From Takakia lepidozioides (lineage: Eukaryota; Plantae; Bryophyta), in NCBI GenBank assembly GCA_030704615.1, contig CM060731.1, positions 82,398,001 to 82,462,000 on the forward strand: 64,000 bases of DNA, read 5' to 3'. The position numbers and the translations under genes are program-made. The notes under the pieces are model-generated. The model saw only the letters and a program-made list of their open reading frames with translations, was not told the origin of the DNA and ran no database searches. Shown here piece after piece: positions 12,484-59,479 of the stretch. Numbering within the stretch: the first letter of the stretch is position 1; every line of letters begins with the position of its first letter.

Positions 12484-13208
12484 TGTCGCGACCCTTTGCC
12501 TTGAGGGGAGGGGGTCGGGACACGAGAGGGGCTGCCCCTGTGGTGGGGGCAGTGACAACAATAGATGCGGGGGCTGAAGCACCCTTGAGTGCCAAGGCAC
12601 TCAAGGAGGCGGAGGCGCTCACTAGGTGGAGCCCCGCACACCGGGTTGCGGTGGGGGTGGCTCCACAAGGGGGTGGTGGTAGCTTAGTGGGACTTAGTGG
12701 GGGTGGTATAGGACTCACCATGGGGCGGAGAGCTTGTGGTGGGAGTTGTGGGGAGTCTTGGGACTCATCACGGACCAATGGGGCCGTGGTGGGTGGGCCA
12801 AGACTCACCGCAACTAATCACCGGGAATCGAGGGTCTTCGTGGTGGTTCGCCATAAAATGGCATGGTTGTTTGTGAAACCCCCGCGGACAGTCACAGAAC
12901 TATATATAGGGAGTAGTAACCCCGAGAACGGTGCAAGCCCGTTGGTGACAAAAAACTAGTGAGTAAGCGAGCGAGCCGGAAAGCGACCAAGGAGTGGGGA
13001 GCTATTCCGGACTGCCATCTACCAAAGGGAATTTCCACTAGGCCCAAATTGGTGGAGGGTCTGTTGGGGGAATAAAGGGGGACCGTTATGTCCCGGTGAG
13101 CAGCCGAAGCTCCGAGTTGGCCCGGCGGCCAGTTTGGGAGTTAGGCGCACACGTCAAAGCGAGTAGCTATGACTTGAAGGGGAGCTTGCCGAAGTAAGGT
13201 GCGCGACA
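12484..13208 (+). repeat. 5' LTR of the truncated gypsy copy
   Basis: TG...CA ends, aligns with the LTRs at 30439 and 36686, and is followed by the tRNA-Met PBS. Confidence 0.93.
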
Positions 13209-13263
13209 TTTGGTATCAGAGCTTAGAGTTCAGTACACGATCGTCCTTGGGATCGGCCTCATC

Positions 13264-16200: not shown

Positions 16201-16336
16201 GGCCTACGCACGAGAAAGAAATGAAGGCGGTGGTGCATTGCTTTGAGCTTTGGCGCCACTATATTGGTTCCAACCCGGTGAAGGTGTTCACAGACAATGT
16301 CACGGTGAAGTATTTTGCCACGCAGCCTAAGTTGTC
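13264..16336 (+). pseudogene. gag-pol pseudogene (gag, protease, RT, RNase H)
   Basis: ORF fragments 13463-13729, 13805-14263, 14282-15067, 14949-15392, 15399-15731, 15827-16096 and 16158-16358 are collinear with the full-length copy. Many stops and frameshifts, plus a 104-bp insertion. Confidence 0.93.
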
Positions 16337-20400: not shown

Positions 20401-20680
20401 AACTTCTTGGGCATGGCAAACCATATTGCAGCTTCACATTTGGCCAATTGTAAGTAACCCAAGACGTGCATCGTGCAAGGCCTTCTGGGTAGGTAAGAAC
20501 AGCCTGCCATTGTACAGATTCAAGACCTGTGTACACAGGAATCTTGTTGGACCAGCCTGCAGTTAATCAGACTCCAAACATGCAACAAAGTGACCACTTT
20601 GGGCATGACAAGACAGACTGCAACTTCATTCTACACCATGTACAGTTGCCCCAAGATATGCATCATGTAAAGCATTTTGG
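17433..20680. repeat. Copy A of a diverged, duplicated non-coding unit
   Basis: Blocks 17433-17820, 18478-18610, 19700-20090 and 20230-20680 match 22220-22660, 23425-23550, 24270-24630 and 24660-25320 in the same order. Confidence 0.8.
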
Positions 20681-23600
20681 CATGGAAGAAAGGCCTGCCA
20701 TGTCACAGCATCAAGATATGGACACTCATACATTTTGAGTGCCCGAGATCAAGCCCCCTTGGCCAGAATAAATCATACGATGCAGGAGGTTGTTCTGATG
20801 GCAAAATGAGGCAACTAATCATTGGCCAAGGTCCATTAGACCTTACCACCACTGTTTCCCAGGAGGCTAATGCCATGTTTTGCAAATAGAACCTCACTAT
20901 ACTCCATTCCACATCAAATCTAGGCCTGAAAGAGGCCTGTCATTGCCTTATCAGGCTGCCATCTTTAAAAAACCGGGCCTCCTCTTCCTTAGAACCTAAC
21001 AACCACTGATGTCTTTACCCTTAAACCATCATTCCTCTTTTAAGGCCAAAACTGTACCTAGTCTAAAAATCCACAAGCAATGCTGTCAAAGATTCAAGAC
21101 AGGGTAAGATTCAGATGTTGTGCTTCAAGAGACAGGCCTGCCAGGCCGAAATGCTCCATCAACGGCAGCAAAACATAAGTCAAAAGTAAGCATCAACATG
21201 TCAAACCGGGAGCAAGCGGGCCGAAAGGCAGCAGCCAAGTCATGACGCCATACAGAGTATGTTCCTTTTGCTCACATCCTTATCTGCAAGCTCAAGAGAA
21301 TTCAAAGCAAGTAGGGATCCTCACCTGGTCCCATCACAAGCCCCCACAAAAACCAACAGGTTAGTAAGGATTGTAGAACCCCAGGTGAATCACAGACCCC
21401 TACACTTGTCATCGATGTCAACTAAGAACCTCAAAAGCAAGAGAGAAAGACATAAAGTAAAAGGAGCCCTAATCACCAAAAGCACCTTGAGCGATTGGGG
21501 AAGGTAACTGTGCGCCATCGTCACTAGCAAGCCACCTCCAGCACAGCTGAAGGTGAAGCATACAAGCATCCTTGCTAGGTTTAAGAAGGGAGAGAGAGAT
21601 ATTTCCCCACACAAGCGCCGCTGCGAAACATAAAAGCCAGAGAAGGGAAAGAGACGATGCAATCACAGCAGGGTCTCCCGCCTGTGAGAAGAGACAAGAC
21701 GCCGCCATTGCGCATCCCCAGGAGCTCGTCCGGCATGGGCACAAAGCAGTAGACATGGTAGCAGCAGAGCTCAGACGCCATAACTCTCAGCCCGCGAGCT
21801 CAGAAGCACGAGGAGTGCTGCTGACGGCGGGAGAGACATCCTAGGGCAGTGCCCGATTTTTCATCCGTGCAGGATGAGTAATCAACACCCCTTATTTCGA
21901 AACCCGACGGATGTCATCCGTTAGCTAGGTTTAAACAGTAGGTTATAGGGTAGGGGTTAGGGTTTCACTCCTTAATTAGCCATAATTAAGGGTAATTAAA
22001 CAAAGGTCCAGGGCCATCATAGGCTGCATATTTCATCCGGTTCAGATGAAAAAGTTAATAATGTCTAGTTGGAGAAGGTCCGTCAATAGGATGGAAAAAC
22101 AGTGCATATCATCCAAGGCAACGGTTTCTCATCCTAACATGTAATTCATCATCCCCTAAGAAAAGCCTCATCCAGTACGGAAAAAAAGGCCATAAAAGAG
22201 GAATAAAATGAATTAATATCCTGGTATTTTTCATCCGGTATAGATAGGATGCCAGTGTCAACCCCTACAGAGGTAATTCCTCATTCTCTGGTGACTCATC
22301 TGGTATAGATGAAAGTCAATAAAAGAGGAATGAAAAAATCATAGACCCATTTTAGAGGTATTTTAGTGTCCACCCAGGTAATTCATCTGGTATGGATAAA
22401 AAATCTTTATAGGGCGGGTGAAAACACTGTTTAGAATCCATCCGGTATAGATGGAAAAACATGAAAAAAACACTGATACAACCGGCCAATTCCGAGGAGG
22501 GAGACAGAGGAAGAGAGGGGGCATCAAAGAAAAAAAAAAATGTGGGGGCAGCTGCTCAGTCCCCCCCCCCTCCCCCTTTTTTGTTTTTTTTGTTTTTTGT
22601 TTCCTGATCTCTCCCTTTCACTCCCTCTCTATGTCCCTCTCTCTCCCTCTCTCCCTCTCCCTCTATAACTCTTTGGATTTCATCTGGCCTTAACCTTTTG
22701 AGGTTATTTAGTTTTTCATCCAAATCTGGATTATTTTATTTTATTATTGGATGATGAAACTTAATATACAGAAAGCTAGAGTTACCATCTGTTTTTTTCA
22801 TCTAAACTGGATGATCTACATAAATAATGGTTACCTATTATAAAATCTAGGAGAATAATAAAACTACCATCATAAATGATGGCAGTTATTAAACCTAAGC
22901 CTATACCATAACCCTAAGAGATACATTTCTATGGGATGTCATCCAGTGACAAAATGCCTCTCTTGGTAAAATGTGATATTTCATCCATCCTGGATGAAAA
23001 ATCGGGAAGTTTTGCCCTAAGCAGGCCGACACACTTCACAGCACTGAACTCGTGCTTCAGTGAACCTTGATGATGCGCCGTATAAACCTGCTCCCCTGCT
23101 GCTACATGGTACTCGTGATTGCTGGCTCTTGGGATGCGCATTGGTGGTTAAACAGATTCTTCTATGGCAGACGACAAAACCGTGATTGCTCTGATCAGGA
23201 ACTCATGGTTCTTTATTTTGCAGCGGCGCTTTTACTCCTTGTTGGGAAGTACTCTATCCCTATTTATCTACAGATTACAGGTTGCTCTCTCTTTGTGTAT
23301 GAGCCATTCTCTATCTGTGAACGCTTCTACTCTGATTGCGTTCTGTTGGAGTCGATCTGTTGGACGCCATGGCGCAGGGCATACCACAAACACTCAAGGT
23401 TTTTTGAGTTTACCATTGCTTGAATTGTGATCTGTACTTGCTTTAGAATTCAACACTGACATGGATAGCAACTGTGAAGACCTGCCATTTACCTGCTGCA
23501 TCCTCACTAACACACATCGCTATGTGGTGGTTTTTGGACGGGCACAGATGAGGGTCTTCACTTGTCTTGATTTCTTGAAGCTTGCAGTTCCTGTTCTTGC

Positions 23601-24197: not shown

Positions 24198-24620
24198 CCA
24201 CCCTCCCGCCCTGTTTTTTCAGAGACCCTGAAATGTAATTGGGTATTCAAATGAGATTGTAAACATGAAAGAGAATGTTAGATGGTGCCTTGTCAAGGGC
24301 TGTTTTGTCTTTCAATGACAATGACCTTAGTGGTCTTGTCCATGTCTTGACATGACATGTATATCTTTTCTCTCCTCTCTTTTGTGCTGCTCACAAAAAA
24401 AAAATAACCACAGAGGGAGAGAGGGGGTAGAAAAAGTTAAAAAGAGAGAGGGAAGATACTTATGTCATGTCAAGACATGGACAAGACCCACTAGGGTCAT
24501 TGTCAATTAAAGACATAAACAACCCATAAACATGGCACCATCTAACACTTCCATTCTTGTCATGACTTCCCAATTGATTTCACCCAATCATTCATGATAA
24601 AACAGGGTGGGAGGGCGGGG
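24198..24620. repeat. Long imperfect inverted repeat (arms ~24198-24372 and ~24443-24620); a shorter version lies at 19720-20010
   Basis: gacaatgaccttagtggtcttgtccatgtcttgacatgacat versus atgtcatgtcaagacatggacaagacccactagggtcattgtc, and gttagatggtgcc versus ggcaccatctaac. Confidence 0.9.
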
Positions 24621-24661
24621 TTTGTTTATGTATAGGTCATGACAACAAGACAAGCATATAA

Positions 24662-25320
24662 ACAAGCATCTTGTGTACTGAAAAATCAGATTGCTGCAAC
24701 ATGTTCAAAATCCTGTAAGTAACCCAAGACATGCACCATGCAAGGCTCCTTGGGTAGGTAAGAACAGCCTGCCCTGCTACAGATTCAAGGTATGTTCATA
24801 CAAGCACCTTGAAGGACCAGCCTGCAATTTACCAGATTTCAAACATGCAACCAAGTAATCTTCTTGGGCATGACAAAACATATTGCAGCTTCACTCTTTG
24901 CCATTTGTAAGTACCCCAAGACATGCATCATGCAAGGCTCCTTGGGTAGGTAAGAACAGTCTGTTCTACTACAGATTCAGGATATGTTCATACAAGTACC
25001 TTGAAGGACCAGCCTGCAATTAATCAAATTTCAAGCATGCAACCAAGTAAACTTCTTGGGCATGACAAAACATATTGCATCTTCACTCTTTGCCATTAGT
25101 AAGTATCCCAAGACATGCATCATGCAAGGCCTCTTGGATAGGTAAGAATATCCTGCCATACTACAGATTGAAGACATGTATATACAAGCATCTTGATGGA
25201 CCAGCCTGCAATTTATTAGATTCCAAACATGCAACCAAGTGACCCACTTGGGCATGACAAGACAGACTGCAACTTCATTCTACACCATGTATAATTGCCC
25301 CAAGACATGCATCATGTAAG
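24662..25320. repeat. 192-bp tandem repeat, ~3.4 units (about 2 units at 20250-20680)
   Basis: caag(c/t)a(c/t)cttga(a/t)ggaccagcctgcaattt starts at 24801, 24993 and 25185, a period of 192. Confidence 0.9.
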
Positions 25321-25699
25321 CAGCTGTTCAGTCCCCCCCCACCTTCTTTTCTTTTCTTTGTTGCCCCCTGATGTCTCCCTCTCACTCCATCTCTCTGTCC
25401 CTCTCTCTGTCCCTCTCTCCCTCTCTTCTGTGCTGCTCTCTTTTAAGCTCCCGACGAGATAAATTCAAGTCAGATGGTGGGTTCAGCTGCAACATATGTC
25501 CAACATCAGATATCATAAGTTAATCGACTCTATATCTTGGAAACAGGACCGCCCTATCAAACAGGCTAAGCCCTGGCAGAAGAGATTCTCAAGGATCTGA
25601 ATCTAGACCCGCAAGTCTTGACCTTGCTGGATAAACCTGACTTAGAGAGTGTCGTGTCCAAAGCCATGTCTGTTACCAGAACTTGTCTGATGAAAATAA

Positions 25700-25990
25700 A
25701 TTTAAGAAGAAAACTTCCCTGAACTTGTTTCCAGTCTGTGACATGGGGGAGGACATCATGGATGTGCTCAAGGGTCTATCCCACTCTTGGCATCAGACTG
25801 AAATTTAAACTCAGGGCAGGAAGCCTACCTTTGAACAGTAAACAAAAGCAGAGAGGAAAGAAATAGTGCAATTGCCCGTTGTGTGGGCAACTTGAAGACA
25901 GTATTCATTTTCTGATGTCCGGGGTTCTCTCACCAAACAGACGCTCTCTTCAAATCTATCAAGGGAATTGTGCATGTACCTCTATTTACC
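25700..25990 (+). pseudogene. LINE ORF2 C-terminal zinc-finger fragment
   Basis: IRLKFKLRAGSLPLN...CPLCGQLEDSIHFLMS matches the CxxC-E-D-xx-H pattern of non-LTR retrotransposon C-termini. Confidence 0.6.
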
Positions 25991-27787
25991 AACTTTGAAA
26001 GTCTCGAGGCTGAGCCAAAAGCCCAGCCCCTTCTGCTCAGTAACCCTCCCCCCCCAACCTTTTTTTGTTTTGTTTTGTTTCGTCATCTCTTCCTCTCTCT
26101 CCCTCTTCCTCTCTCTCTCTCACTTTTGATGTGACATACAAGTTATGGACAACTCTCGACATCTTTCCATTGATCCCACATGACAAGACAGACCATTTTT
26201 CGATCTCCCCACCCTGACCTACCTCTGCTGCTGCTGCTTCAAGCGAGCTGTTGCGGTGTTGTCGCGGCTGCCAACGGCGCGGGTCCCCGCTGCTGCTGCA
26301 GGGCGTCTCTCCCCCGCTCACCACGGCTCTCTCTCTCTTCAGCTCGTTTACATCCCGCCTCTATGCGGCGTTTCTACCACACAAGGGAGAGAGAGATCAG
26401 CCCGTGCTTAGAGCAAGAAAGCAAGAGAGAAAGTGAGGGAGGAGGCGGTGCTTACCTTGGCTGTTGGAGCGGCATTGGGGCTAACTCCTTGGGGCCTTGC
26501 AACCACCTCGGGCTCAGCAGTAGGTGCATTTCTCCTCCACCCTAAATACTCTCTGAACTACCTCTCTCCCAAAGAACAAATGAAAACGGGAGGGGAAGGA
26601 GGTGCTTCAAGCACTTAGGAAAAAAAAGGGCGCGGCGCCTACGTGCGACGCCCGGCCGTCGCATGCCTGCGCCCCGCCCTTTTTTTGAAATGTACAAATG
26701 GTATTCGCGACGGCGGGCCGTCGCTACTTGCGACCCCCGGCCCCATAAATAAATAAAAACATGTCGCCTCCCGCGACGGCTTTCCGTCGCGGGGTGCGAC
26801 CTCAGGCTAAAAATTTGAAAAAAAACGCGTCGCCAAATGCAACGCGAGGGTGTCGCAGGAGGCGACGGCCGGCCTTTTTGGGTTTAGGGTTTAGGGCCTT
26901 TTGGGGTTCTTAGTTTTTATTTTTATTTTGTTTTTTTTCATATGGTACTGGGTTAGGGTGTTTTTTTTTTTTTTATGGTGCTGGGTTTTGGATCGGCAGT
27001 TTGGGTTGTGGGTCTTGGGGTTGAAAGGATAAACGGTGTAACTAGGATTCATATACCCAAAATGTGGTTCAATATGATAAGCGCAAAGCGCTGGGTCTCA
27101 GTAAAATTTTCCATGGTGTGGGCATCCTGAAGATAGAACGTGAGGAAGGATTTATTGTCTTGGGCTTTCTAGCACCATAGGGATGCTCCGCTTTTGGTTA
27201 CCAATTTTGAAAGCCCCAAGGCTGAGGCATAGGGTTTTTTCGCCAACAGTTTTTTGTGAATGTTAATTAGGATGCGATGGTGAAGAAACATCGACCCGTT
27301 TCCCTCGAGGATGGGGAGGTAGTACCGAATATCAATTGTGGCCCTAGAGCGACCGTTTTTCGTGGGGAGGAGCCACCCATTGCACCTGATCCAATACAGG
27401 CTGCCGGGCACAATCGTAGAAGGGACCGGGGCCAAATTTCAGGTGATGCGGAGGATGTTGACACTCCGGGATTGAGTCAGGCACGCCACGGATTGCCCCC
27501 TCGCGGGCCACCCCTGTCCAACCACATCCACCTTTGACCCCCCGACAGGATTGAGTGTTGGTGCACTAAGTGTTGGGAACGGATACCGCCGGGCGGCTCC
27601 AGACCACCGAGGCGGCGACCGCATGTTGTCGAAAAACATTACAAGAAGAACAGGATTGCGGATGCGGCAAAGGTGAGTGTTTTTCCCACCCCTCTCATTA
27701 ACATTCATTTAAGGTACATTTAGGTTTATCTAATAATATAGTATGATTGGTAAGCATACATGAATCCAAATTACGACATAAGTATTG

Positions 27788-28899
27788 ATGCGTCGTTCAC
27801 TACGTATATTGCAGCCACGACTTGATGCCCAAGCTCGTAATCACATTGCACAGGAGGCATTTCGCGCCGGTCTACTTGCAGAATTTGTGCCAGAGCATGT
27901 GCCCGATGTGACCAATTGGTTCCCCCAGCAACACGTAGATGATCGTAGGTGTCATAGGCTTTATGGCTGGCGACAAGCAGGCCCCCCCCCCCCCCCCTCC
28001 AGTTTCCTCAGGCGGTCCCCCTGATCCAGTGTCCTCATCTGATGATTCTCCGCACCGTACATATAGTAGCAGTTTGCAGGCCGATTGTGCCCCCCCCACC
28101 CCCGTCTGTTTCTTTGCCTGATCCACCTCCGGTAGTACCTGATCCGGACGTTGTACCCCCGGCTGCACCTCCGGCATTACATCCTCAACCACCTCCACCT
28201 CCACCTCCACGTGCATGTGCCCCCCGAACCTCTAGGAGGGGTCGGCTTTGCCCTAGGTTTCTTCCCCTTAGGCTTGGGCGGCCTGAGCTGGATCCTCGGC
28301 CCCGATGGGAAGCGCATAGGACTATGTTACTGAGGACCATCCAGCCTCGTTGATGGGGGAATCATCTCGACCCTCCCACCCCCATCCGAGAGAATGTGTA
28401 TTGGGGGAGACGGTATGTTGTGAGAGCCGCTACAGACCCTGCTATGGGTCAGGGTTTATTCACGGTCAATGATATTGTGGTTCCTCCTCGGAGAAACAGC
28501 ATGGTTGATTTGTTTCCCTACTACGGTCCATACTATACCTCCGCGGAGTTCCGTACATTACGCCTCAAAGCCCCATACATCCTACCCTACATTTTGTGTG
28601 TCAACGGACAGGATGTACGTAGACGGAGGTTGTCTCCCATTGAGATAAGATTTTGTGATGGTGACCCCGACATCTTCGGCAATGTAGCTGGGTTGGTCAA
28701 CAGTTCTTTTGGTCATCCTAGGAGAACCAATGTAGTATGGGACAAGCGAAGCGATGGGCATGAGAGCTTTTGTGGTCATACGTCGGTATACTGTGAGGGG
28801 ATGCACATGTTTGTGATGACATGTGCTAGTAGGACTATTAGGGCTGGCAGCGAACTATTTGCATCATACGAGTTCTCCCGGGATGATTGGGACCTCTGA
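27788..28899 (+). pseudogene. Proline-rich protein with C-terminal SET domain (SET at ~28410-28872)
   Basis: SET motifs in order: GQGLF (motif I), PYYG (II), GNVAGLVNSS (III, canonical RFINHS), IRAGSELFASYE (IV, canonical IxxGEELxxDY). ORFs 28042-28353 and 28396-28899 share a frame and are separated by one TGA. The upstream ORF 27788-28024 joins through a poly-C frameshift. Confidence 0.8.
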
Positions 28900-30438
28900 T
28901 TACAACGTGAGTGGGATGTGTATGATAGAAATAGGGTTCCTTTGAGACAGGGATCGCGTAGAGGGGCATTGTAGATATTCTCATGATGTACTTTGTATAC
29001 ATCCGATTGATCGATTGATGTAAATATTTTTCTTGTAGCTCGTGTGGGTTGCAACTTTGCATATGTGATCTAAACATACTTATGCACATGTGGACCAAAT
29101 ATGAGCTTGAACCAAGTTGATTCAATGAGTCATTCTAGTGTTGAACACAGCTACGTGTCGTAGACACGGAAAATTACGTTTCGCCTGCACATGATTTTTA
29201 TTTTTTTTTCCATTTTCAAGCCATATGCTTAATGATAGCATATGCAATGTGCGTGCAAAATTTGGGAGTAAACAAAAGTCATTTGGACCCATAACCATAT
29301 TTTGTTCTCTCATTTGCACTCCAAAGTTGAGTTATCTTCAACTTCATGCACTCTTAATAAACAAAAATTGGTTGATAGGGTGAACGCGTCCTTGGGGGGG
29401 CAAATGATTTTGTTTGGGTTTGAAACTTTGCATGCGTGACGTTGCGCACATACATGTAATTATTGAATGACATATTTGATGCATGCACACATTGAAGGTT
29501 GTTATTTGCATTTCGCTTATAATGAGTTGTATGGTTGCAATGAGACATTATAATATATGTCCCTATGTTCATTTGTTCGTATCAGGACTTTGTCCATCCC
29601 TTCCCGGTCCTTTCTCTTGGCACCCCATCCGAAAACAACCCAAGTACATCAGGCGGGAGCCGTGGATGAGACGTCGCCCCCATGGTACCGGACGATGATG
29701 ACGATGACAGTGACAGTGACAGTGACAACAACAATGAGCATGGAATTAACCAGGAGGATGTGCAAGCCATGTAGGATCTCTTCATGCATCATGTGGGCGC
29801 TGATGCATCCCATGGAGAGGGAACCCGGCCAATCGATGATCCTGAAATGGCCCCCTCAAATGACATGGAGAGGGAGGAAATAACTCTTTTGTACGAAGGG
29901 GCGAAAGTGAGTCGACTGTCAACAATCTTACTTTTGCTCAATCTTCAAATTTGATTTGGCATAAATAATGTTGGGATGTCTGCCATAATGCGAACTATTG
30001 CAGACTATATCCTTGTTCCACACTTGAAACCCAAGATACCACGGTCGCGGAAAGAGGCGCGCGAAGTCTTGGACTCTCTGGGTATGGGCTAAAAGATTTT
30101 TCATGCATGTCCATGTGATAAAACCCTATACTACGGAGAGGATTCGCGTCTCACCAAGTGCCCAAAGTGCAAGAAAGACCGATATCGGGATGTTGTCCAA
30201 GGGAAAAAAGTACCACGCAAGGTATAAGCGTCATTCCCCCTCACATGGAAATTACTTTCTCTAATCTTCTCAATGCATGTAAAGTGTATTCCACAAAGTT
30301 TAGGGTTTAGAGAGTAGTACTCATGCAAGATCTGATTGTGGTTTTGGAAGGAGTGAGTGAGGAGTGGAAGGAACGACATTCGGTTTTGACCATTCACGCC
30401 CAAATGAGGGAGAGGCTGCATAAAGGGAAAGGCATAAG

Positions 30439-31163
30439 TGTCGCGGCCCTTTGCCTTGAGGGCAGGGGGGTCGGGACACAAGAGGGGCTGCCCCTGTGGT
30501 GGGGGCAGTAGTAGCGATAGGTACGGGGGCTGAAGCACCCTTGAGTGCCCAAGGCACTCAAGGAGGCGGAGGCGCTCACTAGGTGGAGCCCCGCACACCG
30601 GGTTGCGGTGGGGGTGGCTCCACAAGGGTTGGTGGTAGCTTAGCGGGACTTAGTGGGGGTGGCATAGGACTCACCATGGGGTGGAGACCTCGAGGTGGGA
30701 GTCGTGGGGAGTCTTGGGACTCATCACGGTCCATTGGGGCCGCGGTGAGTGGGCCAAGACTCACCGCGACTCACCACCGGGAATCGAGGGTCTTCGTGGT
30801 GGTTCGCCATAAAATGGCATGGCTGGTTGTGAAACCCCCGCGGACAGCTACAGAAGTATATATAGGGAGTAGTAACCCTGAGAACGGTGCAAGCCGTTGG
30901 TGACCAAAAACTAGTGAGTAAGCGAGCGAGCCGGAAAGCGACCAAAGAGTGGGGAGCTGTTCCGGACTGCCAACTACAAAAAGGAATTCCCGCTGGTTCC
31001 AAAGCGGTGGAGGGTTCTTTGGGAGAACAAAGGGGGACCGTTATGCCCCGGTGAGCAGCCGAAGCTCCAAGTTGGCCCGGCGGCCAGGTTGGGAGTCAGG
31101 CGCGCGCATCAAAGCGAGTAACTATGACTTGAGGGGGAGCTTACCGAAGGGAGGTGCGCGACA
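30439..31163 (+). repeat. 5' LTR
   Basis: 725 bp, nearly identical to 36686-37411. Confidence 0.97.
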
Positions 31164-31165
31164 CT

Positions 31166-31177
31166 TGGTATCAGAGC
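31166..31177 (+). promoter_or_regulatory. Primer binding site (initiator tRNA-Met)
   Basis: TGGTATCAGAGC, two bases after the LTR end. Confidence 0.95.
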
Positions 31178-31218
31178 TTAGAGTTCAGTACGCGATCGTC
31201 CTTGAGATTGGCCTCATC

Positions 31219-34200
31219 ATGGGGTCGGGCAAGCCAAAGCGAAAGCGGAACGGCCCAAAAGATGATGATCCTGGTGAGCCCGATGGGGGCGACATGTCAC
31301 CGAGGCGGCCGTTTGAGGAAGCGATGAATGTTTCCGAAAACGAGGCCGCTCAGGAGCGGGAGGAATCCGAGGAGTCGGAGCCCGAGGAATCCTTGAGAGC
31401 TCTGACAAACCAAGAGATGCCTCCCATGCCGGCAGCCTTTTGGGAAGGGTTGTTGGCGCAGTTTGGTGGGACGTTGAAAGACGTATTGAAGGCGGCTAAT
31501 GCCACTTTCACTAAGGCAAAGTTTAAGGTGAAGCCTAAGGAACCCGGCACCTTCGAGGGCGTTCAAAATCGGAAGGCACTCAACACCTGGCTCCTAGAGC
31601 TAGAGCAGTACTTCCGGGCGGCCAAGTTGAGTGACGAGGATCGGGTGGAAGTGGCTCCCACCTATTTGAGGGCTATGCTCAACAATGGTGGCAGAAACGC
31701 CTTCACGACCGAGGCCCAAGCCCGGAAACCTTGAACTGGAGTGGGTTCAAGGAATTGATGAAGAGACAGTTTGTGCCCCTCAACGCATCCTGGCTTGCCC
31801 GGGACAAGATGAGGAATTTGAAGCAAACAGATGACATTCGGGGGGTATGTCCAGGCTTTCAATGTGCTGTTGCTCGAAGTCGCGGACATGGTAGAACCAG
31901 AAATGGTCTTCAACTTTGTGGCGGGACTGGCCCCATGGGCCAGGCGGAAGTTGGAGGAGAAGCCACCCAAGACTTTGAACGAGGCAATTGAGAGGGCTGA
32001 ATGTTTCTCGGATGTCCCTAAGGGTGAGAGACAAGGCCGTACGGAGCTGAACCACAAGAAGACCCGGCGGGAAGGTGACTCCTTCCGACCGGAAAAGAAG
32101 TGGGATAGGCCACGCGGCAACAATGGCACGTGGAAATCGAAGGGAGGACCTTCACACGTCAAGGCGGCACCCGGTGCTTTGAAAGGAAAAGCGGGTGGAG
32201 CGGCTTATGGCGGACAGAAGGCGACCTTTGATGGAGTGTGTTTCAATTGCGGGGAGCCCGGGCACATGGCCAAGAAGTGCACAAAACCTCGTCAATTGAA
32301 CATGACTCGGGCAACCACGAAGCTGTCGGAAGATACCATCAGTCGCTTGGTGGAAGCGGTGGTCGCCAGGACTTGCAAGATAGGCAACTATTCTTGTGAG
32401 TTGTATCAGGAAACTGGCGCCCTGCGTAAAGGGAGTCAGTTATTGTTCGTGGATGGGATAATATCCGGAACTAACGTGTCGTTGTTGGTGAACACAGGAG
32501 CGTCGCACTCCTTCATGACGCCGGTGGCGGCGCGAAAGTTGGGACTCCCGACAAGTGACATGGGGGCCTCTATTGAGGTGCGCTCTACCAAAAGAGAACC
32601 TCAGTTGGCGACAAGGTTGGCGTTTGATGTTCCTCTTCAACTGGGGAGTTGGGAGGGACGTGAGAACTTCACCATCTGCGAGATCGATGGAGTGGATCTC
32701 ATTTTGGGGATGACCTTTTTGAGCAAATCCGGAGCGGTCATAGATGGCCGCAAGAGAGTAGTCACGCTGCCATGTGGGAATGGTGGCAAGGTTTTACGAG
32801 TGTCGGAAACGCCCAAATCCGTGGGAGGGCGAATAAACCTTCTGTCAGCAAAGGAGTGGGTCGTGGAGGAGGCACATGAGTCCCAGTTTTTGTTTTACAT
32901 TAGAGAGGTGAAAGGAGAAGGCGATGGGGAGCCGAGCCCAGATTGGATCAAGGGGATTTTGGAGAAATACCAGGATGTGATGCCGGAGGATTTACCAAGC
33001 GGCTTGCCACCGCAAAGAGGAGTTGACCACAAGATTGAGGTGATACCGGGATCGGAACCGCCTACCAAGGCACCCTACCGGTTGAGCCACAGAGAGTTGG
33101 TCAAGCTGAAGACTCAGCTCAAGGATCTAATGTCAAAGGGGTACATCCGGCCGAGTAAGTCACCTTACGGAGCCCCGGTGCTATTCGCAGACAAGAAGGA
33201 TGGGACGCTGCGGATGTGTGTCGATTACAGGGCTTTGAATAAGGTGACTATTAAAAATCGGTACCCTTTGCCAAGGATCAACGACCTTTTCGACCGGTTG
33301 GCAGGAGCGAAGTATTTCAACCGGATCGACTTGCGCTCCGGCTATCATCAAATTCGAGTGGCGGAAGGAGATGAGGAGAAGACCGCGTGCAGGACAAGGT
33401 ATGGTTCATATGAGTTCTTGGTGATGCCTTTTGGGCTCACTAATGCACCGGCGACCTTTAGCACGCTGATGAACAGCCTTTTTCAGGAGTGGTTGGATGA
33501 CTTTGTGATCGTGTACATCGACGACATCTTGGTGTACTCGAAAACAAAGGAGGAACACCTGGAGCACCTCAAAAGGGTGTTCCAAAAGTTGCGGGAAGGG
33601 AAGCTGTACGCCAAAGCTTCAAAGTGCGAATTCGGGGTCACAAAAGTGGAGTTCTTGGGGCATGTGATTACACAGGATGGGATCAAAATGGATGACAGAA
33701 AGGTGAGGGCGATCTTGGACTGAGAGCCTCCGACTTCGGTCCCGGGAGTGCGATCCTTCCTAGGACTCGCCTCCTATTACCGGAAGTATGTGAGAAATTT
33801 CGCCAAGATCGCGGGGCCGCTGTCGGACCTTCTGTGTAAATCCAAAGTCTGGGTATGGAACACATTTTGTGGCCAAGCTTTTGCTGAATTGAAGCAGCGG
33901 ATGGCGGAAGCTCCAGTCTTGAAAATCTCGGAGTTCGATCGTCCATTTGAGATTCATACAGATGCGTCGGACTTCGCGATTGGGGGTGTACTTATGCAAG
34001 ATGAACGTCCAGTGGCTTACGAAAGTAAGAAACTGAATGAAGTGGAGCGACGGTGGTCGACGCACGAAAAAGAGATGAAGGCGGTGGTGCACTGTCTTGA
34101 GCTTTGGCGCCACTATGTTGGTTCCAACCCAGTGAAGGTGTTCACGGACAATGTCACGGTGAAGTATTTTGCCACGTAGCCCAAGTTGTCCCCAAAACAA

Positions 34201-35779
34201 CTTAGGTGGCAAGATACTTTGGCGGTGTTCGACGTGGATATCCAGTACAAACCGGGACGAGACAACGTGGTGGCCGATGCTTTAAGTAGAAAGCAGCAGC
34301 TCTTGTTGGTGTACAAGGGCGAGACGACGCTCCAAAGGAAGATCCGGAGGGCTTACCGGAAGGATGAGCTGGCGAAGTCCGTGATGCAGGACTTGAGGAT
34401 GGGGGTTAAATCGCAGTTCCACTTGCAAAATGGACTGCTCCGGTATAAGCAAAAACGTCTCTACGTGCCAAAGGGAGGGATCAGAGATAGCCTCTTGAGA
34501 GAATGCCATGATAGCCCGCTTGCGGGCCACGGCGGAGCCAAGCGCACTGCGGCACTCTTGAAGAAAGAGTATTTCTGGCCCAAACTGAGGGAGGAGGCAG
34601 AGGAGTATGTCAAGACATGCACCACATGCCAACAAAACCGGAGCGAGTACAAAAAGCAAGCGGGGCTGTTACAACCCTTGCTGATTCCAGAGGGGACTTG
34701 GGAAAGCGTCTCGATGGATTTCATGACTGCTATGCCGCTGTCAAAAGGATTCGATGCAATCATGGTGGTGGTGGATAGGTTCAGTAAAATGGGCCATTTC
34801 ATCCCCACCAAGGAGACGGCAACGGCGCAGGAGACAGGGCGACTTTACTTCGCCCATGTCTTAAAGCATCATGGAGTCCTGAAGGATATTGTCTCGGATC
34901 GCGATCCAAAGTTTACGAGTAAATTTTGGAGGACACTTTGGAAGAAGATGGGGACGAGGCTGAAGATGAGCACCGCCTTCCGACCTACGACGGACGGCCA
35001 AACGGAAAGAGTGAATTCCGTAGTGAAGCAATTCTTGCGGAATTACGTGTCGGCAGACCAATCCGACTGGATGGAACACTTAGACGCGGCAGAGTTCTGT
35101 TATGATAACACAGAACACTCCGCAACGGGAGTTTCCCCTTTCGTATTGGTCTATGGAAAAGCACCTCTGGTGCCGACAAGTTGGGCCGCCCAGGACGTTG
35201 AGGAACCGGCAGTAGCGGCGGTACTGGAAGAACGCGAGCGTTTGTTGAAGCTCGCAAAGTACAACATTGCCAAAGCTAGGAAACGGTATGAAAGGCAGGC
35301 GAATCGGAAGCGGAGGGAAGTGAAGTTTGAGGCAGGCACAGAGGTCTGGTTGAACATCAAGAATTTTCGACTACCTCCGGAAGTGAGTCCGAAGTTCGAA
35401 CCTCCGTATGCGGGACCCTTTCGCATTCGGAAGGTTATGAATGAGGATGTGTATGAATTGGAGCTGCCGGCAAACAGCAAGGTGCACCCAGTATTCCATG
35501 TCTCCCTTTTGAAGCCTTACTTCAAAGATGAAGCGCGTCCGAATCGACATCAAGTGTTGCGTCCGCCACCTATGCTGTTGGATCATGAAAAAACCTGAGT
35601 ACGAGGTGGAGGCAATACTTAAGTCGAGGAGGTTCAAGAACCGAGAAACGGAGTATCTCGTCAAATGGAATGGCTATCATCATGTGGAGGCATCTTGGGT
35701 GCGTGCCTCAGAAATGGGAAACGCATCCGAGGCGGTTGCAGCTTTCGAAGGGCGATCTCAAAAGCGGAAGAAACGTTGA
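31219..35779 (+). pseudogene. gag-pol polyprotein with chromodomain, disrupted
   Basis: [14 protein letters not shown] knuckle; protease [10 protein letters not shown] (D>N); RT YIDDIL; RNase H TDAS; integrase HHCC and SMDF/SDRD/DGQTER; chromodomain EYEVEAIL...EYLVKWNGY...ASW. Frameshifts at ~31671, ~31842 and ~35590; stops at 33721 and 34177. Confidence 0.96.
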
Positions 35780-36670
35780 TGGGGACATCAACCTTGGAGC
35801 GTGGGGGAGGAAATGCATGCTTAGCCCGGCTTAGCTAGCTTAGGAATCCAATTACAAAAACTTGTATTGTACAAAAATTTGTTATAAAGGAAATGGGTTC
35901 CAAATGTTGTGCGTCCTATTTTGTTTGGAATGGTGATGCATGGTATGGTTGGCTAGTGTGTAGAATGCATGCTAGCTTATAAAAGTGGGAGAGGTAAATT
36001 GGGTTAATCGTGTGTTTGCGTAGTGCCAAAATCGGGTGACCCCCATCCAAGGGGCAAGGAAACTTGCGACTTCTTTGGGAGTTCACGTGCTAGTGCGCAC
36101 CTGGCGCGTGCGCGTACTATAACTGCGCTACCGAGGGGGTTGCCTTGTAGTGCGGGCTAACGCGGAAGCTACGTGCTTCCATTCACGTACTATAATCGTG
36201 TAGCCTCGGGACGAAGTCGTAGTGCGGCTTCGGCGTGTTCCCGTACCTCAGGCCAGCATTCCAAGGCGGACCCAATTGTAGTGATTGGGGCGCACGGTTG
36301 GTTCAAGGTTATCTTCCTAGTCAAAGAGGGTTCCAGGTGAACCCTTGCTCAAGGTGATGCCAAAAGCGGCATCATGAGCGGTCGCAAGCAATGTTGTTGC
36401 AGTAAGGCGATTCGATCCTCAAGGAGGATCGTTCCTTGGCCTTGAAGTAGGCCAAGAAGAGTGCACTGGGAGGAGCTTGAGAGGCTCCACCCTTGGCCGG
36501 GACTTGGAGGAAGTCGGCCGAACTAGCTAGTGGAGAGTAGAGTCAAGTGTGGGGTTTGGTTCTTTGCCATGGGACGCCATGGTACGGAAACAAACTCCTT
36601 GATGTGGGACGCCACAACTTGGATGTTCGTTTCTACAAAATGAACAAGTCGATGAGGACATCGACTCCCT

Positions 36671-36685
36671 GTTGGTAGGGGTGTG
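36671..36685 (+). promoter_or_regulatory. Polypurine-tract position (G-rich)
   Basis: GTTGGTAGGGGTGTG immediately precedes the 3' LTR. Confidence 0.65.
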
Positions 36686-37411
36686 TGTCGCGGCCCTTTG
36701 CCTTGAGGGCAGGGGGGTCGGGACACAAGAGGGGCTGCCCCTGTGGTGGGGGCAGTAGTAGCGATAGGTACGGGGGCTGAAGCACCCTTGAGTGCCCAAG
36801 GCACTCAAGGAGGCGGAGGCGCTCACTAGGTGGAGCCCCGCACACCGGGTTGCGGTGGGGGTGGCTCCACAAGGGTTGGTGGTAGCTTAGCGGGACTTAG
36901 TGGGGGTGGCATAGGACTCACCATGGGGTGGAGACCTCGAGGTGGGAGTCGTGGGGAGTCTTGGGACTCATCACGGTCCATTGGGGCCGCGGTGAGTGGG
37001 CCAAGACTCACCGCGACTCACCACCGGGAATCGAGGGTCTTCGTGGTGGTTCGCCATAAAATGGCATGGCTGGTTGTGAAACCCCCGCGGACAGCTACAG
37101 AAGTATATATAGGGAGTAGTAACCCTGAGAACGGTGCAAGCCCGTTGGTGACCAAAAACTAGTGAGTAAGCGAGCGAGCCGGAAAGCGACCAAAGAGTGG
37201 GGAGCTGTTTTGGACTGCCAACTACAAAAAAGAATTCCCGCTGGTTCCAAAGCGGTGGAGGGTTCTTTGGGAGAACAAAGGGGGACCGTTATGCCCCGGT
37301 GAGCAGCCGAAGCTCCAAGTTGGCCCGGCGGCCAGGTTGGGAGTCAGGCGCGCGCATCAAAGCGAGTAACTATGACTTGAGGGGGAGCTTACCGAAGGGA
37401 GGTGCGCGACA
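36686..37411 (+). repeat. 3' LTR
   Basis: 726 bp, TG...CA, followed by the TSD. Confidence 0.97.
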
Positions 37412-40400
37412 ATAAGGGTGTTGTATTATGTGTGCTAATGGGATGATTACATGTGGGGGACGTGGGGTATTTCATCCTAGAAAATGATTACTTTCCGATC
37501 ATCCCGCGATTGAGGGCACAGTACCGAAGCCCCGAATTGGCCAGACTCATGAGATGACACACCTCGCATCGGAGCCCCCCCGGGAAAGGTGTGCGGGCCA
37601 CAAGATTCACAAGCATAGAGGCATATTGAAGAGATATGGCCTTTTATCTTGGAGGACCCACGACATGTCCACCTCGGCTTCTCCTCGGATGGGGTCAACC
37701 CATTCTCTGTCCAGTCATGTAGTCATTCCACTTGGCCGGTGACCATGGTGAATTACAACATCCCTCCGTATCTTTCAATTAAAAAAAGGCATATCATGTT
37801 GGCTGCCATTGTGCCAAGTGAGTGTTCTCATTTCATGTTTATTATTGCCTTGGACTTTACATTAAACTTCTGATCTCTGACGCAATTCGGATGCAAGATT
37901 GATGAGTGACATAATCATGGAGTAAGACGTGTAATTCATTTTGTAGTATAATTTGCATATTGGTGGAGCATTGAAACAATGATGTGAATGTCTCATAGGG
38001 AAAAAACAAGTGGCAAACATGGACACGTACTTGCGACCTCTTGTTGATGAACTTAAGGAGCTAGGGAGGGGGGTCCCGGCATTGGATGCTTCACTTGACC
38101 CTATGGCCGGACAATCTTTTCAGATGAAAGGCATCTTGCTTTGGACAATGCATGATTATCCAGGTATATTATGTTCCCGATGAACAACCCGCGTACATTC
38201 ACTTGTCAATGCCGGATAATATCGATGAGGATTGGGATTGATTGAAGTAGCGGCGACAGTCTTGTGCACCGTAGTGGGGTAGATTGCATTATGGGCCATG
38301 CACATGACAACTTTTTGTCTTTGCTAATGTGGCGAGATGTGTAGTACATGACTAACTGTTTGCTCGGGGCTAAGCACCAAAGGGTACCATGCATGCTTGC
38401 ATTGTGGCGATGATCTTGATGCACATAGCTCCCGCCATCTTCACAAGATGGTGCAAATTTCTTCCTATGAGCCATCGATGGAGAAAAAGAGATAAACGCT
38501 TGTTTGATGGCAAAGAGGAAGTACCCCCCCCCCCCCCCCCCCTCCCCCTTTATGACACCATCCGAGCAGTTTTGGGAGGACCGATGGAAGGAGGCCCATG
38601 CGGGCACGGACGGTGAAGTGGATGTGCCCGACATGAAGCGACTTTCAATCTTCTACGAGTTGCCATATTGGGCGGTACATATTCCACAAAAACACCGTCA
38701 ATATCCCTATGCATGCATGTGATATTGCACATTTGGTATGCGTTGCATTGTCACTTTCACGTCAAAAAATTTGTATAAACATTGTGGGTGGGGATATATG
38801 TAGGACCCAAAGATTCGCCATCTTCTAGATCCCATGCACATTGAGAAGAATGTCTGCTCGTCTCTTTTTTGGGTTTTTCATGGCACGCCGGCAAAGAAGG
38901 GAGTGGCTGCAAAAGGAGATTCTCTCGGTGTTAGAAAGGAGCTTGAGGAGCAGGGTCGCATGCGCCATCTATGGGCCGAACAAAATGGTGTGGACCCAAA
39001 GGGTGTTGTACGGTGGAAGTATAGGCGCGCACCTTGGCAATGGACAAAAGAGGAATACAAGAAAGTGATAGCCACCATAAGTGTTGTCCGAACACCAATT
39101 GGTTATGGGTCATCTCTCCGTACAAAGTTCAGCGAAGAAGACGGGGTCCATGGTTTGAAGTCTCATGACTATCACAATCTATTGCAAGACATCTTGCCAT
39201 TCCAGTACGTGGGACATTGACTTCCGAGGTTCATGAGACAATCTATAGATTGGGAGGCTTGTTTCGGTGGATTTGCTCCAAAAAAATTGGAGGAAGCGGA
39301 TTTTCCACGCATGAAGAAGGAGGTGGCGGAGGTAATGTGTATGTTGGAGATGCACCTTCCTCCCTCCTTCTTTGACATCCAAGTGCACTTGATAGTGCAC
39401 CTAGTGGATGAGGCTTCGATTGCCGGCCTCGTTCATTCTCGGTGGATGTACTTCCTTGAGCATTATATGAAGACTTTGAAAGCATTTGTAAGACAAATGG
39501 CGCACCCGGAGGGTAGCATGGCGGAGAGGTATACGTTGCAAGAAGCTATGGTCTATTGCACGGAGTACATGACAAGAGTGGATGAGGAAGCCCCTCGGAT
39601 TTGGAACGAAGAGGAGGATGCACGAACCAATGACATCGTTTTGCCCAAAAAATCGAGGAGGGTAAAATTGCCGACCTTGGTGATTGAGCAAACGCATGAC
39701 TTCATACTGAAGAACACCCCATCCATATATGAGTGGGAGCCAAGATACAATAACCTTGTTCAGCAATGAGAGGAGGAGACACTTGCATGGAGGCGGAACC
39801 ATCCAAGGCCGGTTACTAGTCGCCCACAACGAAGAGCGGGCCGCCGGAATGACCCTTCACAAAATTTGCCCACGGAATTGCAGCCTCTAAGTTCATTCCA
39901 ACAGTGGCTTCGGACTTCAGTTTATGACGCCGTTGCTCAAGGAGAGGTGGTTTCAGATTTGGTGCAAGACATTGCAAGGGGCCCCTCTCAATTCGCGACC
40001 TCATACACGGCAGTTTGGGTTCACGGTCGTCATTTCCGCATTCGTTCTCTTGACATGAAGTGCAAAACAACCTTTGATTCTGGCTTGTGTGCCACATATT
40101 GGCAAGACTCCGTGTGGGGCAAGGGAGATACACGACCTGCTATGAGCAAACTTGAGTACATTGGAGAGCTTGAGAGCATACTCCAACTTCAGTATACAAA
40201 GTACCGACGTCTTCTCTTCAAGGAAAGGTGGTTCCAGTCACATCTTGTGGGGCCCTCCGCAACACTAATGCAAGATGATTGTGGTTTCATGCGCGTCAAT
40301 GCAGATAGGCTCAACCCAACTCCTCGTCCCTCCGATGAGCCTTTTTCACGGCCTTCAGACATGGAGCAAGTTTTCTTCTCCGATGACAAAACAAGAGGGG

Positions 40401-41749
40401 GGAATTGGAAGGTGGTTGTGTATGCTCAGCCAAGAAGAAGACGTATCTATCATGGTCTCGGATCTCCATGGGGTGAGGCAATTGCGGTGGACGGAGAGAC
40501 TGGTCATAATGATGCTGATGATGGAGGTTGGATAGAGGGGGTAGAAGAGGATGATGACGCCCCGGAGAATGCATCCCAGACCCTATATGATGAAGCTCCA
40601 GAAGATACGGATATTGGAGGAGACGAAAACACGGCCATTGACAACGAGGTGGAGGATGATTTGAAGGTGCCTTTTGAGGGCCGGACCATTTATGACGATG
40701 ACTCTGATGACCAAGAAGACTTGCAGCTTGATGAGGATGAAGAAGCTCCGGATGATGATGTTCAAGTTGATATGACATGAAATCAAAGCTACATAACAAT
40801 TCTCGCACCGAACTGTACTCATCCCTTCGATTGATTGTACAGGTACATGCATATTGTAGCTTATTTCTATGATTGATCAAAGATGGCTGTGGCTGGTAGT
40901 CTTTCAATAAAGAAGGCAGATGCATTGAATATGTTGGAGCAACACATACAGATGTGGTATCAAGATAATTATCAAAATGAATGTCACAATCTACAAGAAG
41001 GTCCACAACAACAAGCTAAACCATAAAGAAAAACAAACACCCTACCCCAGTACCATATGAAAAAAAAACCAAAAAACAAAAAAACTAAGAACCCTCAAAG
41101 GCCCTAAACCTAAACCTAGAAAGCCTGGCCGTCGATGCCTGCGACCCCCACGCGTCGCACGCTGCGACGCATTTTTAGCATATATGCGGCCGGGGGTCGC
41201 AAACAGCGATGGCACGCCGTCACAGGATGCGTCCTGTTTCTTTTTTGAAAGAATTGGGCAGCCCCTGTTTGCGACGCCCGGCCGTCGCTAATGCGTTTTG
41301 CCATTCATGCGACGGCCTGGCGTCGCCAACAAGTGCTGCGATGAAAGAAAGGGCAAGAAAGGGCTGCCTTTTTTGCGTTGGCGACGGCCGGCCGTTGCCA
41401 GAAAGGGCTGCCTTCTACCCTTCGCTTGGGGGCGACGAGTAGGTGTCGCACGGAAGGGCTGCCTCCTGCCCTTCATCCGCCCGTGCGACGGCCGGGCGTC
41501 GCCGCATGGCCCCGGCGCCAGGTGGCGACCCGCAGTGTCTATTTGCGACGGCCGGGCGTCGCAAAAAGGCGCCGCGGGGTTGGCATTGCACGCTCGGTGC
41601 CGTGTGAGGCATGGGGGCGCGGCTAGCGTCGCAAACCCACCCTCCCCCCCCCCCCCCCCCCCCCCCCCCATTTTGCTGTAGTGCCCCCGCACATTGGCCG
41701 GTCGCCTTGTAAATTGTAGTACCTTTTTTGGGGCCGAGAACCTTCCTAG

Positions 41750-48789: not shown

Positions 48790-48979
48790 TTTGAAGGCGA
48801 GACCTCTCGGTACGCTCCGCAGCGAAGTCCTGCAATGAGAAGAGTGTGTCCTACCTAATAACACAAATGATTTTCTGGAGGATTCCGTATCCAACAGGAT
48901 GGGTGATCAGTGCACGTAAAGATGAAGGTGTATAACGTACGTTACAAAAACAGACGACAATAGCAAGTTCACATCGGAT

Positions 48980-59475: not shown

Positions 59476-59479
59476 TAAA

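What the first reader, a model, noticed from the sequence alone, without database searches (positions are those of the whole stretch)
27788..28899. CACTA transposon carries a minimal SET-domain (lysine methyltransferase-like) gene upstream of TnpD
Seen: all four SET motifs (GQGLF, YYG, GNVAGLVNSS, IRAGSELFASY), no pre-SET or post-SET cysteine clusters, an apparently intronless domain and a proline-rich N-terminus. It lies between the subterminal repeats and TnpD on the same strand, and no TnpA-like ORF is visible in this element. Known: standalone minimal SETs such as chlorovirus vSET methylate host histones. Inference: this is a transposon-encoded chromatin modifier rather than a random capture. 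One TGA (28351) and a poly-C frameshift disrupt this copy.
Basis: partly seen in the sequence, partly recalled or inferred. Interest (0 to 1): 0.78.

Follow-up and report, generated by a model that had tools for sequence, protein, structure and literature searches.

The report
CACTA transposon encoding zinc-finger SET protein
A many-copy cut-and-paste transposon of a likely non-flowering land plant carries, just ahead of its transposase exons, a conserved exon for a protein predicted to have the SET fold, joined by splicing to a small zinc-finger-like exon; it likely methylates histone lysines so that the element can influence its own silencing, though this copy is broken.

Summary
Core observation confirmed; anatomy revised. 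The ORF models as a SET domain (pLDDT 86; Z 13.3 to SET8) and has 66 relatives at 27-53% identity, named ones from liverworts and Ginkgo. It is a family feature: reads lay on it about as deeply as on TnpD, and a SET exon precedes TnpD in 8 of 23 related loci (three families at ~33% identity; 7 loci show no TnpD). dN/dS between subfamilies is 0.24-0.31. The gene is not standalone: a CxCxxC..H exon is joined to the SET exon across a 142-nt GT-AG intron in one probable RNA run, and is in phase with the first TnpD exon too (that splice not seen). This copy has three premature stops in the gene (including 28351 and the supposed end at 28897), two linker frameshifts and a 9-nt deletion. The left repeats are probably internal; the left end and a divergent TnpA-like gene seem lost. 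Activity and target untested; the R and H of the RFxNHS motif are replaced. SET cargo is already published for HarbingerS, MuDR, Helitrons and red-algal EnSpm (Plavaka); this plant layout was not found in my searches. The scan noted it six times on other DNA.

The parts
26300..26560 (-). Family sequence left of the repeat cluster; candidate first exon of a divergently transcribed (TnpA-like?) gene, ending at a GTAAGC donor at 26455 on the minus strand; the rest of that gene and the left terminus were not found
   Evidence: Summed contig depth 21,000-29,000 in X1 and a diverged X2 contig bridging 26548-26722; donor seen in sequence; same position as the divergent gene in L012/L014/L021. Identity as TnpA-like is inferred, not shown
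26600..26979 (.). TGCGA/TCGCA repeat cluster and GGGTTTA boxes, inverted relative to the right subterminal region; probably an internal cluster
   Evidence: 78% identity over 229 nt to 41020-41245; L021 has such a cluster between its divergent gene and its zinc-finger exon
27277..27672 (+). Exon 1 coding part (start ATG inferred) with CxCxxC..H motif at 27556-27633; ends at a phase-0 donor; this copy has a compensating indel pair (27515, 27537) with a TGA at 27535
   Evidence: the motif is also upstream of SET in L001, L002, L004, L012, L014, L016, L017, L020, L021; weak PF13963 match in L001 (E 0.008) and L004 (E 0.08), none in the window
27673..27814 (+). 142-nt GT-AG intron
   Evidence: Predicted from phase, then seen as a joint 27670>27813, GT..AG at cut +2, in one contig of run X9 (RNA by guess), 58 letters on the short side
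27815..28350 (+). Exon 2, 5' part: hypervariable Pro/Ser-rich linker, then a basic stretch; two frame changes in this copy (one within 27813-28021 near the C15 run, one at about 28085-28118)
   Evidence: Net length differences of +17, +8 and -4 nt (all +2 mod 3) in laid contigs (table 8); frames
28351..28353 (+). Premature TGA private to this copy
   Evidence: 28353 read as T by 61,341 of 61,406 depth in X1 and in X5, X8, X9
28354..28896 (+). SET domain with short N-terminal extension (core about 28396-28884); 9-nt in-frame deletion after 28397 in this copy
28897..28974 (+). Second private TGA (28897-28899) and the 25-codon Cys-free tail up to the family stop TAG 28972-28974
29586..30221 (+). 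First TnpD-specific exon (acidic stretch, then TnpD N-terminus), opening at a phase-0 acceptor; decayed (stops)
   Evidence: matches the TnpD start of L001, L004, L009-L012, L016, L021
30439..37411 (+). Ty3/Gypsy-type LTR retrotransposon inserted in a TnpD intron; LTRs 99.45% alike, 5-bp duplication ATAAG
   Evidence: class named from gag-pol-integrase-chromodomain order (recalled)
37481..40780 (+). Remaining TnpD exons (Transposase_21, DUF4218, DUF4216), decayed; exon limits approximate
   Evidence: PF02992 E 1e-19, PF13960 E 6e-32, PF13952 E 9e-6
41020..41683 (.). Right subterminal repeats and right terminus ending in TGTAGTG (CACTACA on the minus strand), followed by CCC

Best explanation
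This is a broken copy of a many-copy CACTA transposon whose first exon, carrying a small Cys/His motif, is spliced to a conserved SET-fold exon, giving a short protein that likely methylates histone lysines at or near the element's own copies to shift their silencing. Shown: SET fold of the model, family-wide presence, linkage to TnpD in three families, purifying selection between subfamilies, the exon 1 to SET splice in one probable RNA run. Inferred: the same exon 1 is alternatively spliced to the TnpD exon at 29586, so that SET is an alternative terminal exon inside the first intron of the transposase gene and both proteins start with the same transposase-associated zinc finger; that finger (or the basic linker) would bring the enzyme to the element or its transposase complex; the enzyme uses SAM; the substrate is a histone and the effect favours the element.
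For: Fold: pLDDT 85.8, pTM 0.80; Z 13.3, rmsd 2.6 over 126 residues to SET8, and the first 43 rows include only SET/PR-type entries; Foldseek SET8 and SET7/9 E 4e-6 to 1e-4. 25 of 30 relatives hit PF00856, 16 over the cut-off. In 37 relatives G32/G34 35-36, N116 31, N126 37, E167 37, final Y172 34. Linkage: TnpD downstream on the same strand in 8 of 23 loci; 5 more run into the same spacer at >=95% until the contig ends; Riccia model P0020 runs into the TnpD start (E 0.001). Selection: omega 0.24-0.31 between subfamilies against median 0.71 among sibling copies; 9 of 13 listed majority differences in this SET are synonymous. Splicing: phase-0 donor and phase-0 SET and TnpD acceptors in the window, L001 and the L009-L022 family; joint seen in X9. 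Precedent for alternative splicing and anti-silencing accessory proteins in Spm and for SET cargo.
Against: The R and H of the canonical RFxNHS motif (recalled) are replaced: G/A in 37 of 37 and S in 36 of 37, so the protein may be inactive. The exon 1 to TnpD splice was not seen; acceptors were picked by me after seeing the frames, and L012 and L021 lack the phase-0 SET acceptor. The RNA evidence is one contig of a run whose RNA status is a guess; an X8 contig runs through the intron unspliced. 7 of 23 loci form a group with no TnpD match, 2 of them with over 4 kb downstream. The zinc-finger exon of the window has no Pfam match. No histone reader or known DNA-binding domain is present. dN/dS loci were found by an intact motif and 7 of the 13 loci of the main family were used.
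Confidence: 0.5

Rival explanations
1. The protein is a catalytically dead SET that is kept as a binding module: a decoy or scaffold that binds histone tails or host silencing factors, or shields the element.
For: R to G/A and H to S in motif III throughout the family; Pfam scores near the cut-off; inactive SET proteins with chromatin roles exist (PMC12886896, start of abstract in search listing).
Against: GxG, the motif-III Asn, the later Asn, Glu and final Tyr are conserved at about 33% overall identity; the best solved-structure profile hit, Legionella LegAS4, also lacks that His and has a non-aromatic residue two before the final Tyr (alignment), and is an active enzyme (recalled).
Confidence: 0.22
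2. It is an active lysine methyltransferase, but its substrate is not a histone: it methylates the element's own TnpD/TnpA-like proteins or a host factor to tune transposition.
For: Top structural neighbours include SET7/9, solved with non-histone peptides; a shared first exon would place it beside the transposase; no histone-reader domain is present.
Against: Nearly all top structural neighbours are histone methyltransferases; other transposon SET cargo is described as histone methyltransferase, although by homology only.
Confidence: 0.17
3. SET is an internal exon of the transposase, so the product is one long zinc finger-SET-TnpD fusion protein.
For: Four database gene models (P0001, P0020, P0068 named Riccia; P0059 unnamed) run from SET into an acidic exon, and P0020 into the TnpD start.
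Against: Those models leave the SET frame before its final Tyr; SET ORFs end in a stop ahead of the TnpD exon in L001 and L009-L012; the X9 contig stays on the window to 28932, past the domain's end; no relative of 878-2505 aa was found (weak evidence).
Confidence: 0.08
4. A host gene fragment captured by this copy and decaying neutrally.
For: This copy is decayed; host absence could not be tested; the setting of the Ginkgo model is unknown.
Against: 2,112 contigs of one run lie on the 1.45-kb stretch in four identity bands; linkage in three families, omega 0.24-0.31; no plant host SET class is among the sequence relatives by name.
Confidence: 0.03

Closest known systems
Plavaka elements (EnSpm/CACTA superfamily) of red algae, accessory gene PAG2 (bioRxiv 10.1101/2025.02.11.637652; passages read)
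   Same: EnSpm-type element that carries a conserved SET-coding accessory gene proposed to modulate chromatin.
   Different: PAG2 is a separate gene fusing an N6-adenine methylase to SET within a three-gene cassette; here SET is an exon between the zinc-finger exon and the TnpD exons of a plant-type TnpD element, with no methylase domain. Sequence kinship to PAG2 was not tested.
HarbingerS and oomycete MuDR elements with SET genes; Helitrons with captured SET (PMC12730594 introduction and references)
   Same: DNA transposons carrying SET genes as presumed counter-silencing tools.
   Different: Other superfamilies and hosts; the Repbase Reports originals were not readable, so gene structure and kinship were not compared.
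Maize En/Spm and Arabidopsis EN/SPM3: TnpA and TnpD by alternative splicing; TnpA of Spm3 induces CG hypomethylation (bioRxiv 10.64898/2026.08.24.746577 and PMC13547354; passages)
   Same: One transcription unit gives a transposase and an accessory protein; accessory proteins counter silencing.
   Different: The alternative product here is a SET-fold protein, not a DNA-binding TnpA; a TnpA-like gene seems to lie separately and divergently.
VANDAL/VANC anti-silencing system (passages)
   Same: Element-encoded protein acting on the element's own chromatin state (inferred here).
   Different: VANC is a sequence-specific regulator without SET fold; no targeting is shown here.
Chlorovirus vSET (PMC3089700, passage) and other short viral/bacterial SETs
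   Same: SET core without Cys-rich pre- and post-SET clusters; giant-virus SETs are structural and feature neighbours.
   Different: Here 250-450 aa proteins with a spliced Cys/His exon, long linker and insertions; no viral contig encodes a relative (0 of 15 candidate stretches); vSET not among rows shown.

Membership tests
CACTA (En/Spm) transposon | TnpD transposase with Transposase_21, DUF4218, DUF4216 | tested here: met
CACTA (En/Spm) transposon | CACTA terminus with subterminal repeats at the right end | tested here: met
   TGTAGTG at 41677-41683 and repeats 41020-41660
CACTA (En/Spm) transposon | Matching left terminus and 3-bp target duplication | tested here: inconclusive
   No CACTA/CACTG at 24490-27300; CACTT at 26612 has another flank and family contigs cross it; copy looks left-truncated
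CACTA (En/Spm) transposon | TnpA-like accessory gene | tested here: inconclusive
   Only a candidate first exon at 26456-26560; divergent gene in L012/L014/L021 has no Pfam match at E 0.05 beyond a chance hit; TnpA likeness rests on a recalled HxxGxxG motif
SET domain (PF00856) | SET fold | tested here: met
SET domain (PF00856) | Profile match above the curated cut-off | tested here: inconclusive
   This copy 15.1 bits against 22.4; 16 of 30 relatives pass
Active SET lysine methyltransferase | GxG motif, motif-III Asn, GEEL..Y with final Tyr | tested here: met
   residue roles recalled
Active SET lysine methyltransferase | Canonical R and H of RFxNHS | tested here: not met
   G/A 37 of 37; S 36 of 37
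Active SET lysine methyltransferase | SAM-dependent methyl transfer to a lysine | not testable with these tools
   needs an assay
vSET-like standalone minimal SET | Whole protein is only the ~120-aa SET core | tested here: not met
   Spliced upstream exon and linker; relatives up to 501 aa
Plavaka PAG2 | N6-adenine methylase fused to SET, in a PAG1-3 cassette | tested here: not met
   Pfam finds no methylase family in 30 relatives; neighbours are the zinc-finger exon and TnpD
Transposase-associated domain PF13963 | Profile match of exon 1 | tested here: inconclusive
   2 of 5 exon-1 peptides hit weakly (E 0.008, 0.08), under the cut-off; window none

The most novel reading that the evidence does not exclude
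A lineage of land-plant CACTA elements, spanning liverworts and probably gymnosperms, has for a very long time carried its own histone methyltransferase as an alternative exon of the transposase gene; the shared zinc finger targets it to the element, where it writes a histone mark that diverts or blocks host silencing. This would be a transposon writing its own histone code in plants, and could bear on why DNA transposons of non-flowering plants carry marks unlike those of flowering plants.
Probability: 0.3. Interest if true: 0.85.

Novelty: new variant of a known kind. Interest (0 to 1): 0.62.

Why it matters
Known plant transposon anti-silencing factors (VANC, TnpA) are targeting proteins; an element-encoded histone-writing enzyme would be a different route in the host-transposon conflict. 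The family is under purifying selection, has open-frame members and at least one spliced transcript, so the question can be tested directly with one purified domain and one transgenic line. It also means that some 'SET domain-containing proteins' annotated in liverwort and gymnosperm genomes are likely transposon genes.

Tried and rejected
Single-sequence word search found no relative; single-sequence folding failed (pLDDT 34); single-sequence PDB search gave one chance hit; NCBIfam gave nothing for the SET proteins. No own genome is held, so copy number and host-gene absence are open; summed contig depth is not a copy number. No run is on record as RNA; X8 and X9 are guesses. The wide alignment had no stretch conserved enough for a locus scan, so the scan used a narrower one with the pattern GNIAG[FY]IN, which the window's own family does not match. 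Viral contigs: 0 of 15 candidates confirmed. Long fused forms: none among 4,770 candidates (weak). vSET not listed in the rows shown: inconclusive. CACTT at 26612 rejected as left end. A profile of the L012/L014/L021 divergent gene found nothing in the window; Pfam named none of 8 TnpA-like peptides. An X9 contig leaves exon 1 at 27670 into 64 letters that match neither exon 2 nor, by eye, the exon at 29586: unresolved. Tree: the window's SET is a long branch (1.46) with weak placement; no donor or order of events is claimed. Literature searches without a report of this layout: (open-licence library only; Repbase Reports and preprint supplements not seen). No complex prediction was run.

Full report
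Observation. The frame 28354-28896 is open for 181 codons and holds the four motifs quoted. Alone it scores only E 0.033 against PF00856, under the cut-off, and folds badly without an alignment. An exhaustive search found 66 relatives at E<=0.001, 26 at E<=1e-10, 27-53% identical. With 37 of them the model reached pLDDT 85.8 and matched SET8 at Z 13.3, rmsd 2.6 over 126 residues; Foldseek gave SET8 and SET7/9 and giant-virus SETs. 25 of 30 relatives scanned hit PF00856, 16 above the cut-off. The language-model atlas gave SET clusters at 0.96-0.97. The SET call is sound.

The element. Downstream on the same strand lie TnpD pieces with PF02992, PF13960 and PF13952, interrupted in an intron by an LTR retrotransposon at 30439-37411 with 99.45% identical LTRs and an ATAAG duplication. 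The right end is TGTAGTG at 41683 after subterminal repeats. No matching left end was found: there is no CACTA/CACTG between 24490 and 27300, and family contigs continue left of the repeat cluster at 26600-26979, one diverged contig bridging 26548-26722. In the related locus L021 the order is CACTACAA end, subterminal motifs, a divergent minus-strand gene, an internal motif cluster, zinc-finger exon, SET, TnpD, subterminal motifs. The window fits this plan with its left part lost, leaving a candidate minus-strand exon ending at a donor at 26455. That the divergent gene is TnpA-like rests on a recalled motif; Pfam did not name it.

A family feature. In run X1, summed contig depth is 59,000-87,000 over the SET bins and 69,000-104,000 over the first TnpD exon; 2,112 contigs in four identity bands lie on 27500-28950. 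Depth is not a copy number, but the SET exon is clearly not private to this copy. Its lesions are: 28353 is read T by 61,341 of 61,406 depth, and 28897 C by 45,715 of 45,905, so both TGAs are private and the family frame ends at TAG 28972-28974; nine bases missing after 28397 are present in X5, X9 and some X1 contigs; contig length differences of +17, +8 and -4 point to two frame changes in the hypervariable linker; exon 1 has a compensating indel pair around a TGA at 27535.

Other families. A metagenome scan gave 23 loci. Eight (L001, L004, L009-L012, L016, L021) have TnpD directly downstream on the same strand; five (L013, L014, L017, L019, L022) run into the same spacer at >=95% until the contig ends; three (L002, L018, L020) end too soon; seven (L003, L005-L008, L015, L023) form a separate group with no TnpD match, two with over 4 kb downstream. 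Window, L001 and L011 SETs are 32-34% identical and their DUF4218 parts 40-46%. In a 47-row tree the four TnpD-linked rows need four label changes even on starred branches, that is, they are spread across the family. Named relatives are gene models of Riccia sorocarpa, Calypogeia fissa and Ginkgo biloba; most are unnamed. One Riccia model runs into the TnpD start. No viral contig encodes a relative (0 of 15). The host of the window is therefore likely a non-flowering land plant (inference).

Selection. Nei-Gojobori estimates on the SET core (7 of the 13 loci of the main family, those with an open core) give omega 0.24-0.31 for L020 against six sibling copies, 0.28-0.93 (median 0.71) among 15 sibling pairs, and 0.24-0.28 among L003, L005, L007. 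This is the pattern of a gene needed by active lineages and decaying in inserted copies. Of 13 listed majority differences inside the window's SET, 9 are synonymous (P about 0.002 if 27% is expected, my rough figure; the table showed 26 of 37 places). No CpG correction was made, and loci were found by an intact motif.

Gene structure. A CxCxxC..H motif lies upstream of SET in the window and in 9 of the 16 loci scanned, and in 4 stored proteins in one chain with SET sequence; two of five exon-1 peptides match the transposase-associated domain PF13963 weakly. It ends at a phase-0 donor at 27673. Phase-0 acceptors open the SET exon (27815) and the first TnpD exon (29586); L001 and the L009-L022 family show the same, though L012 and L021 lack the SET acceptor in phase. 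After this prediction, run X9 (RNA by guess) showed a joint that removes exactly 27673-27814 with GT..AG ends, and a 912-nt contig across the whole domain; X8 and X9 show a second joint into 27813 from a related first exon, and one X8 contig is unspliced. The exon 1 to TnpD splice was not seen.

Mechanism. Best reading (0.5): one transcription unit gives either zinc finger-TnpD or zinc finger-linker-SET; the SET protein methylates histone lysines at cognate copies to the element's benefit. GxG, the motif-III Asn, a later Asn, Glu and the final Tyr are conserved, but the R and H of RFxNHS are replaced family-wide and the residue two before the final Tyr is non-aromatic (roles recalled). The best PDB profile hit (E 2e-4) shares the last two traits. 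Rivals: dead SET used for binding (0.22), non-histone substrate (0.17), SET-TnpD fusion (0.08), neutral capture (0.03). That this is a selected, transposon-encoded, spliced SET-fold gene I put at about 0.9.

What is known. SET genes are reported in HarbingerS and oomycete MuDR elements (PMC12730594, passages), in Helitrons and in red-algal Plavaka elements of the EnSpm superfamily, where PAG2 fuses an adenine methylase to SET (10.1101/2025.02.11.637652, passages). Alternative splicing of TnpA/TnpD and TnpA-induced hypomethylation are described in 10.64898/2026.08.24.746577 and PMC13547354 (passages). vSET methylates host H3K27 (PMC3089700, passage). PMC11982613 (passages) discusses H3K27me3 on DNA transposons but not this gene. 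Searches showed no report of a SET exon in land-plant CACTA elements; subscription journals, Repbase Reports and preprint supplements were not seen. The scan's own notes hold six unreviewed or unchecked reports of the same layout in at least two other genomes, seen after I had reached this reading; none on this genome. They are not independent support.

Verdict. Real, conserved and expressed in at least one relative copy; a new variant of a known kind (transposon-borne SET), distinguished by its place as an alternative exon of a plant CACTA transposase. Interest 0.62; 0.85 if self-targeted histone methylation is shown.

Noticed in passing
window 42081-43068 (-): Decayed multi-exon gene just beyond the right terminus with an HRFGPGG motif and acidic tail, like CACTA TnpA-type proteins (motif recalled; no Pfam match); probably part of a neighbouring element.
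   Followed up: partly
window 50955-54500 (+), right-end-like TGCAGTAGTG at 57624: Long decayed gene with WDGNHR (ParB-like, recalled) and DMILVDIP (methylase-like, recalled) motifs upstream of a second CACTA-type end; reminiscent of Plavaka accessory genes. Pfam, NCBIfam and PDB gave nothing.
   Followed up: partly
window 45196-48906 (-): ORFs with a CxC..CKH motif (SWIM-like, recalled) and Cys/His-rich stretches, probably a MuDR- or Zisupton-like element; no Pfam match at E 0.05.
   Followed up: partly
window 12480-16336 and 30439-37411: Two copies of one Gypsy-type LTR family, 91.5% alike over 3.2 kb.
   Followed up: no
window 57603-60617: LINE-like reverse-transcriptase ORF on + and a further LINE-like 3' ORF on - (class recalled).
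   Followed up: no
window 19700-20740 and 24250-25430: Two copies of a repeat containing 192-bp tandem units and long inverted arms.
   Followed up: no
L003, L005-L008, L015, L023: AT-rich group of SET relatives without TnpD nearby; in L008 and L023 a decayed ORF with a recalled TnpA-like motif follows on the same strand. Its SET also shows omega 0.24-0.28.
   Followed up: partly
P0085-P0153: Large set of near-identical, decayed SET relatives, some with the same CxCxxC..H start, pointing to a high-copy family in another genome; they group with the Ginkgo model in the tree.
   Followed up: partly
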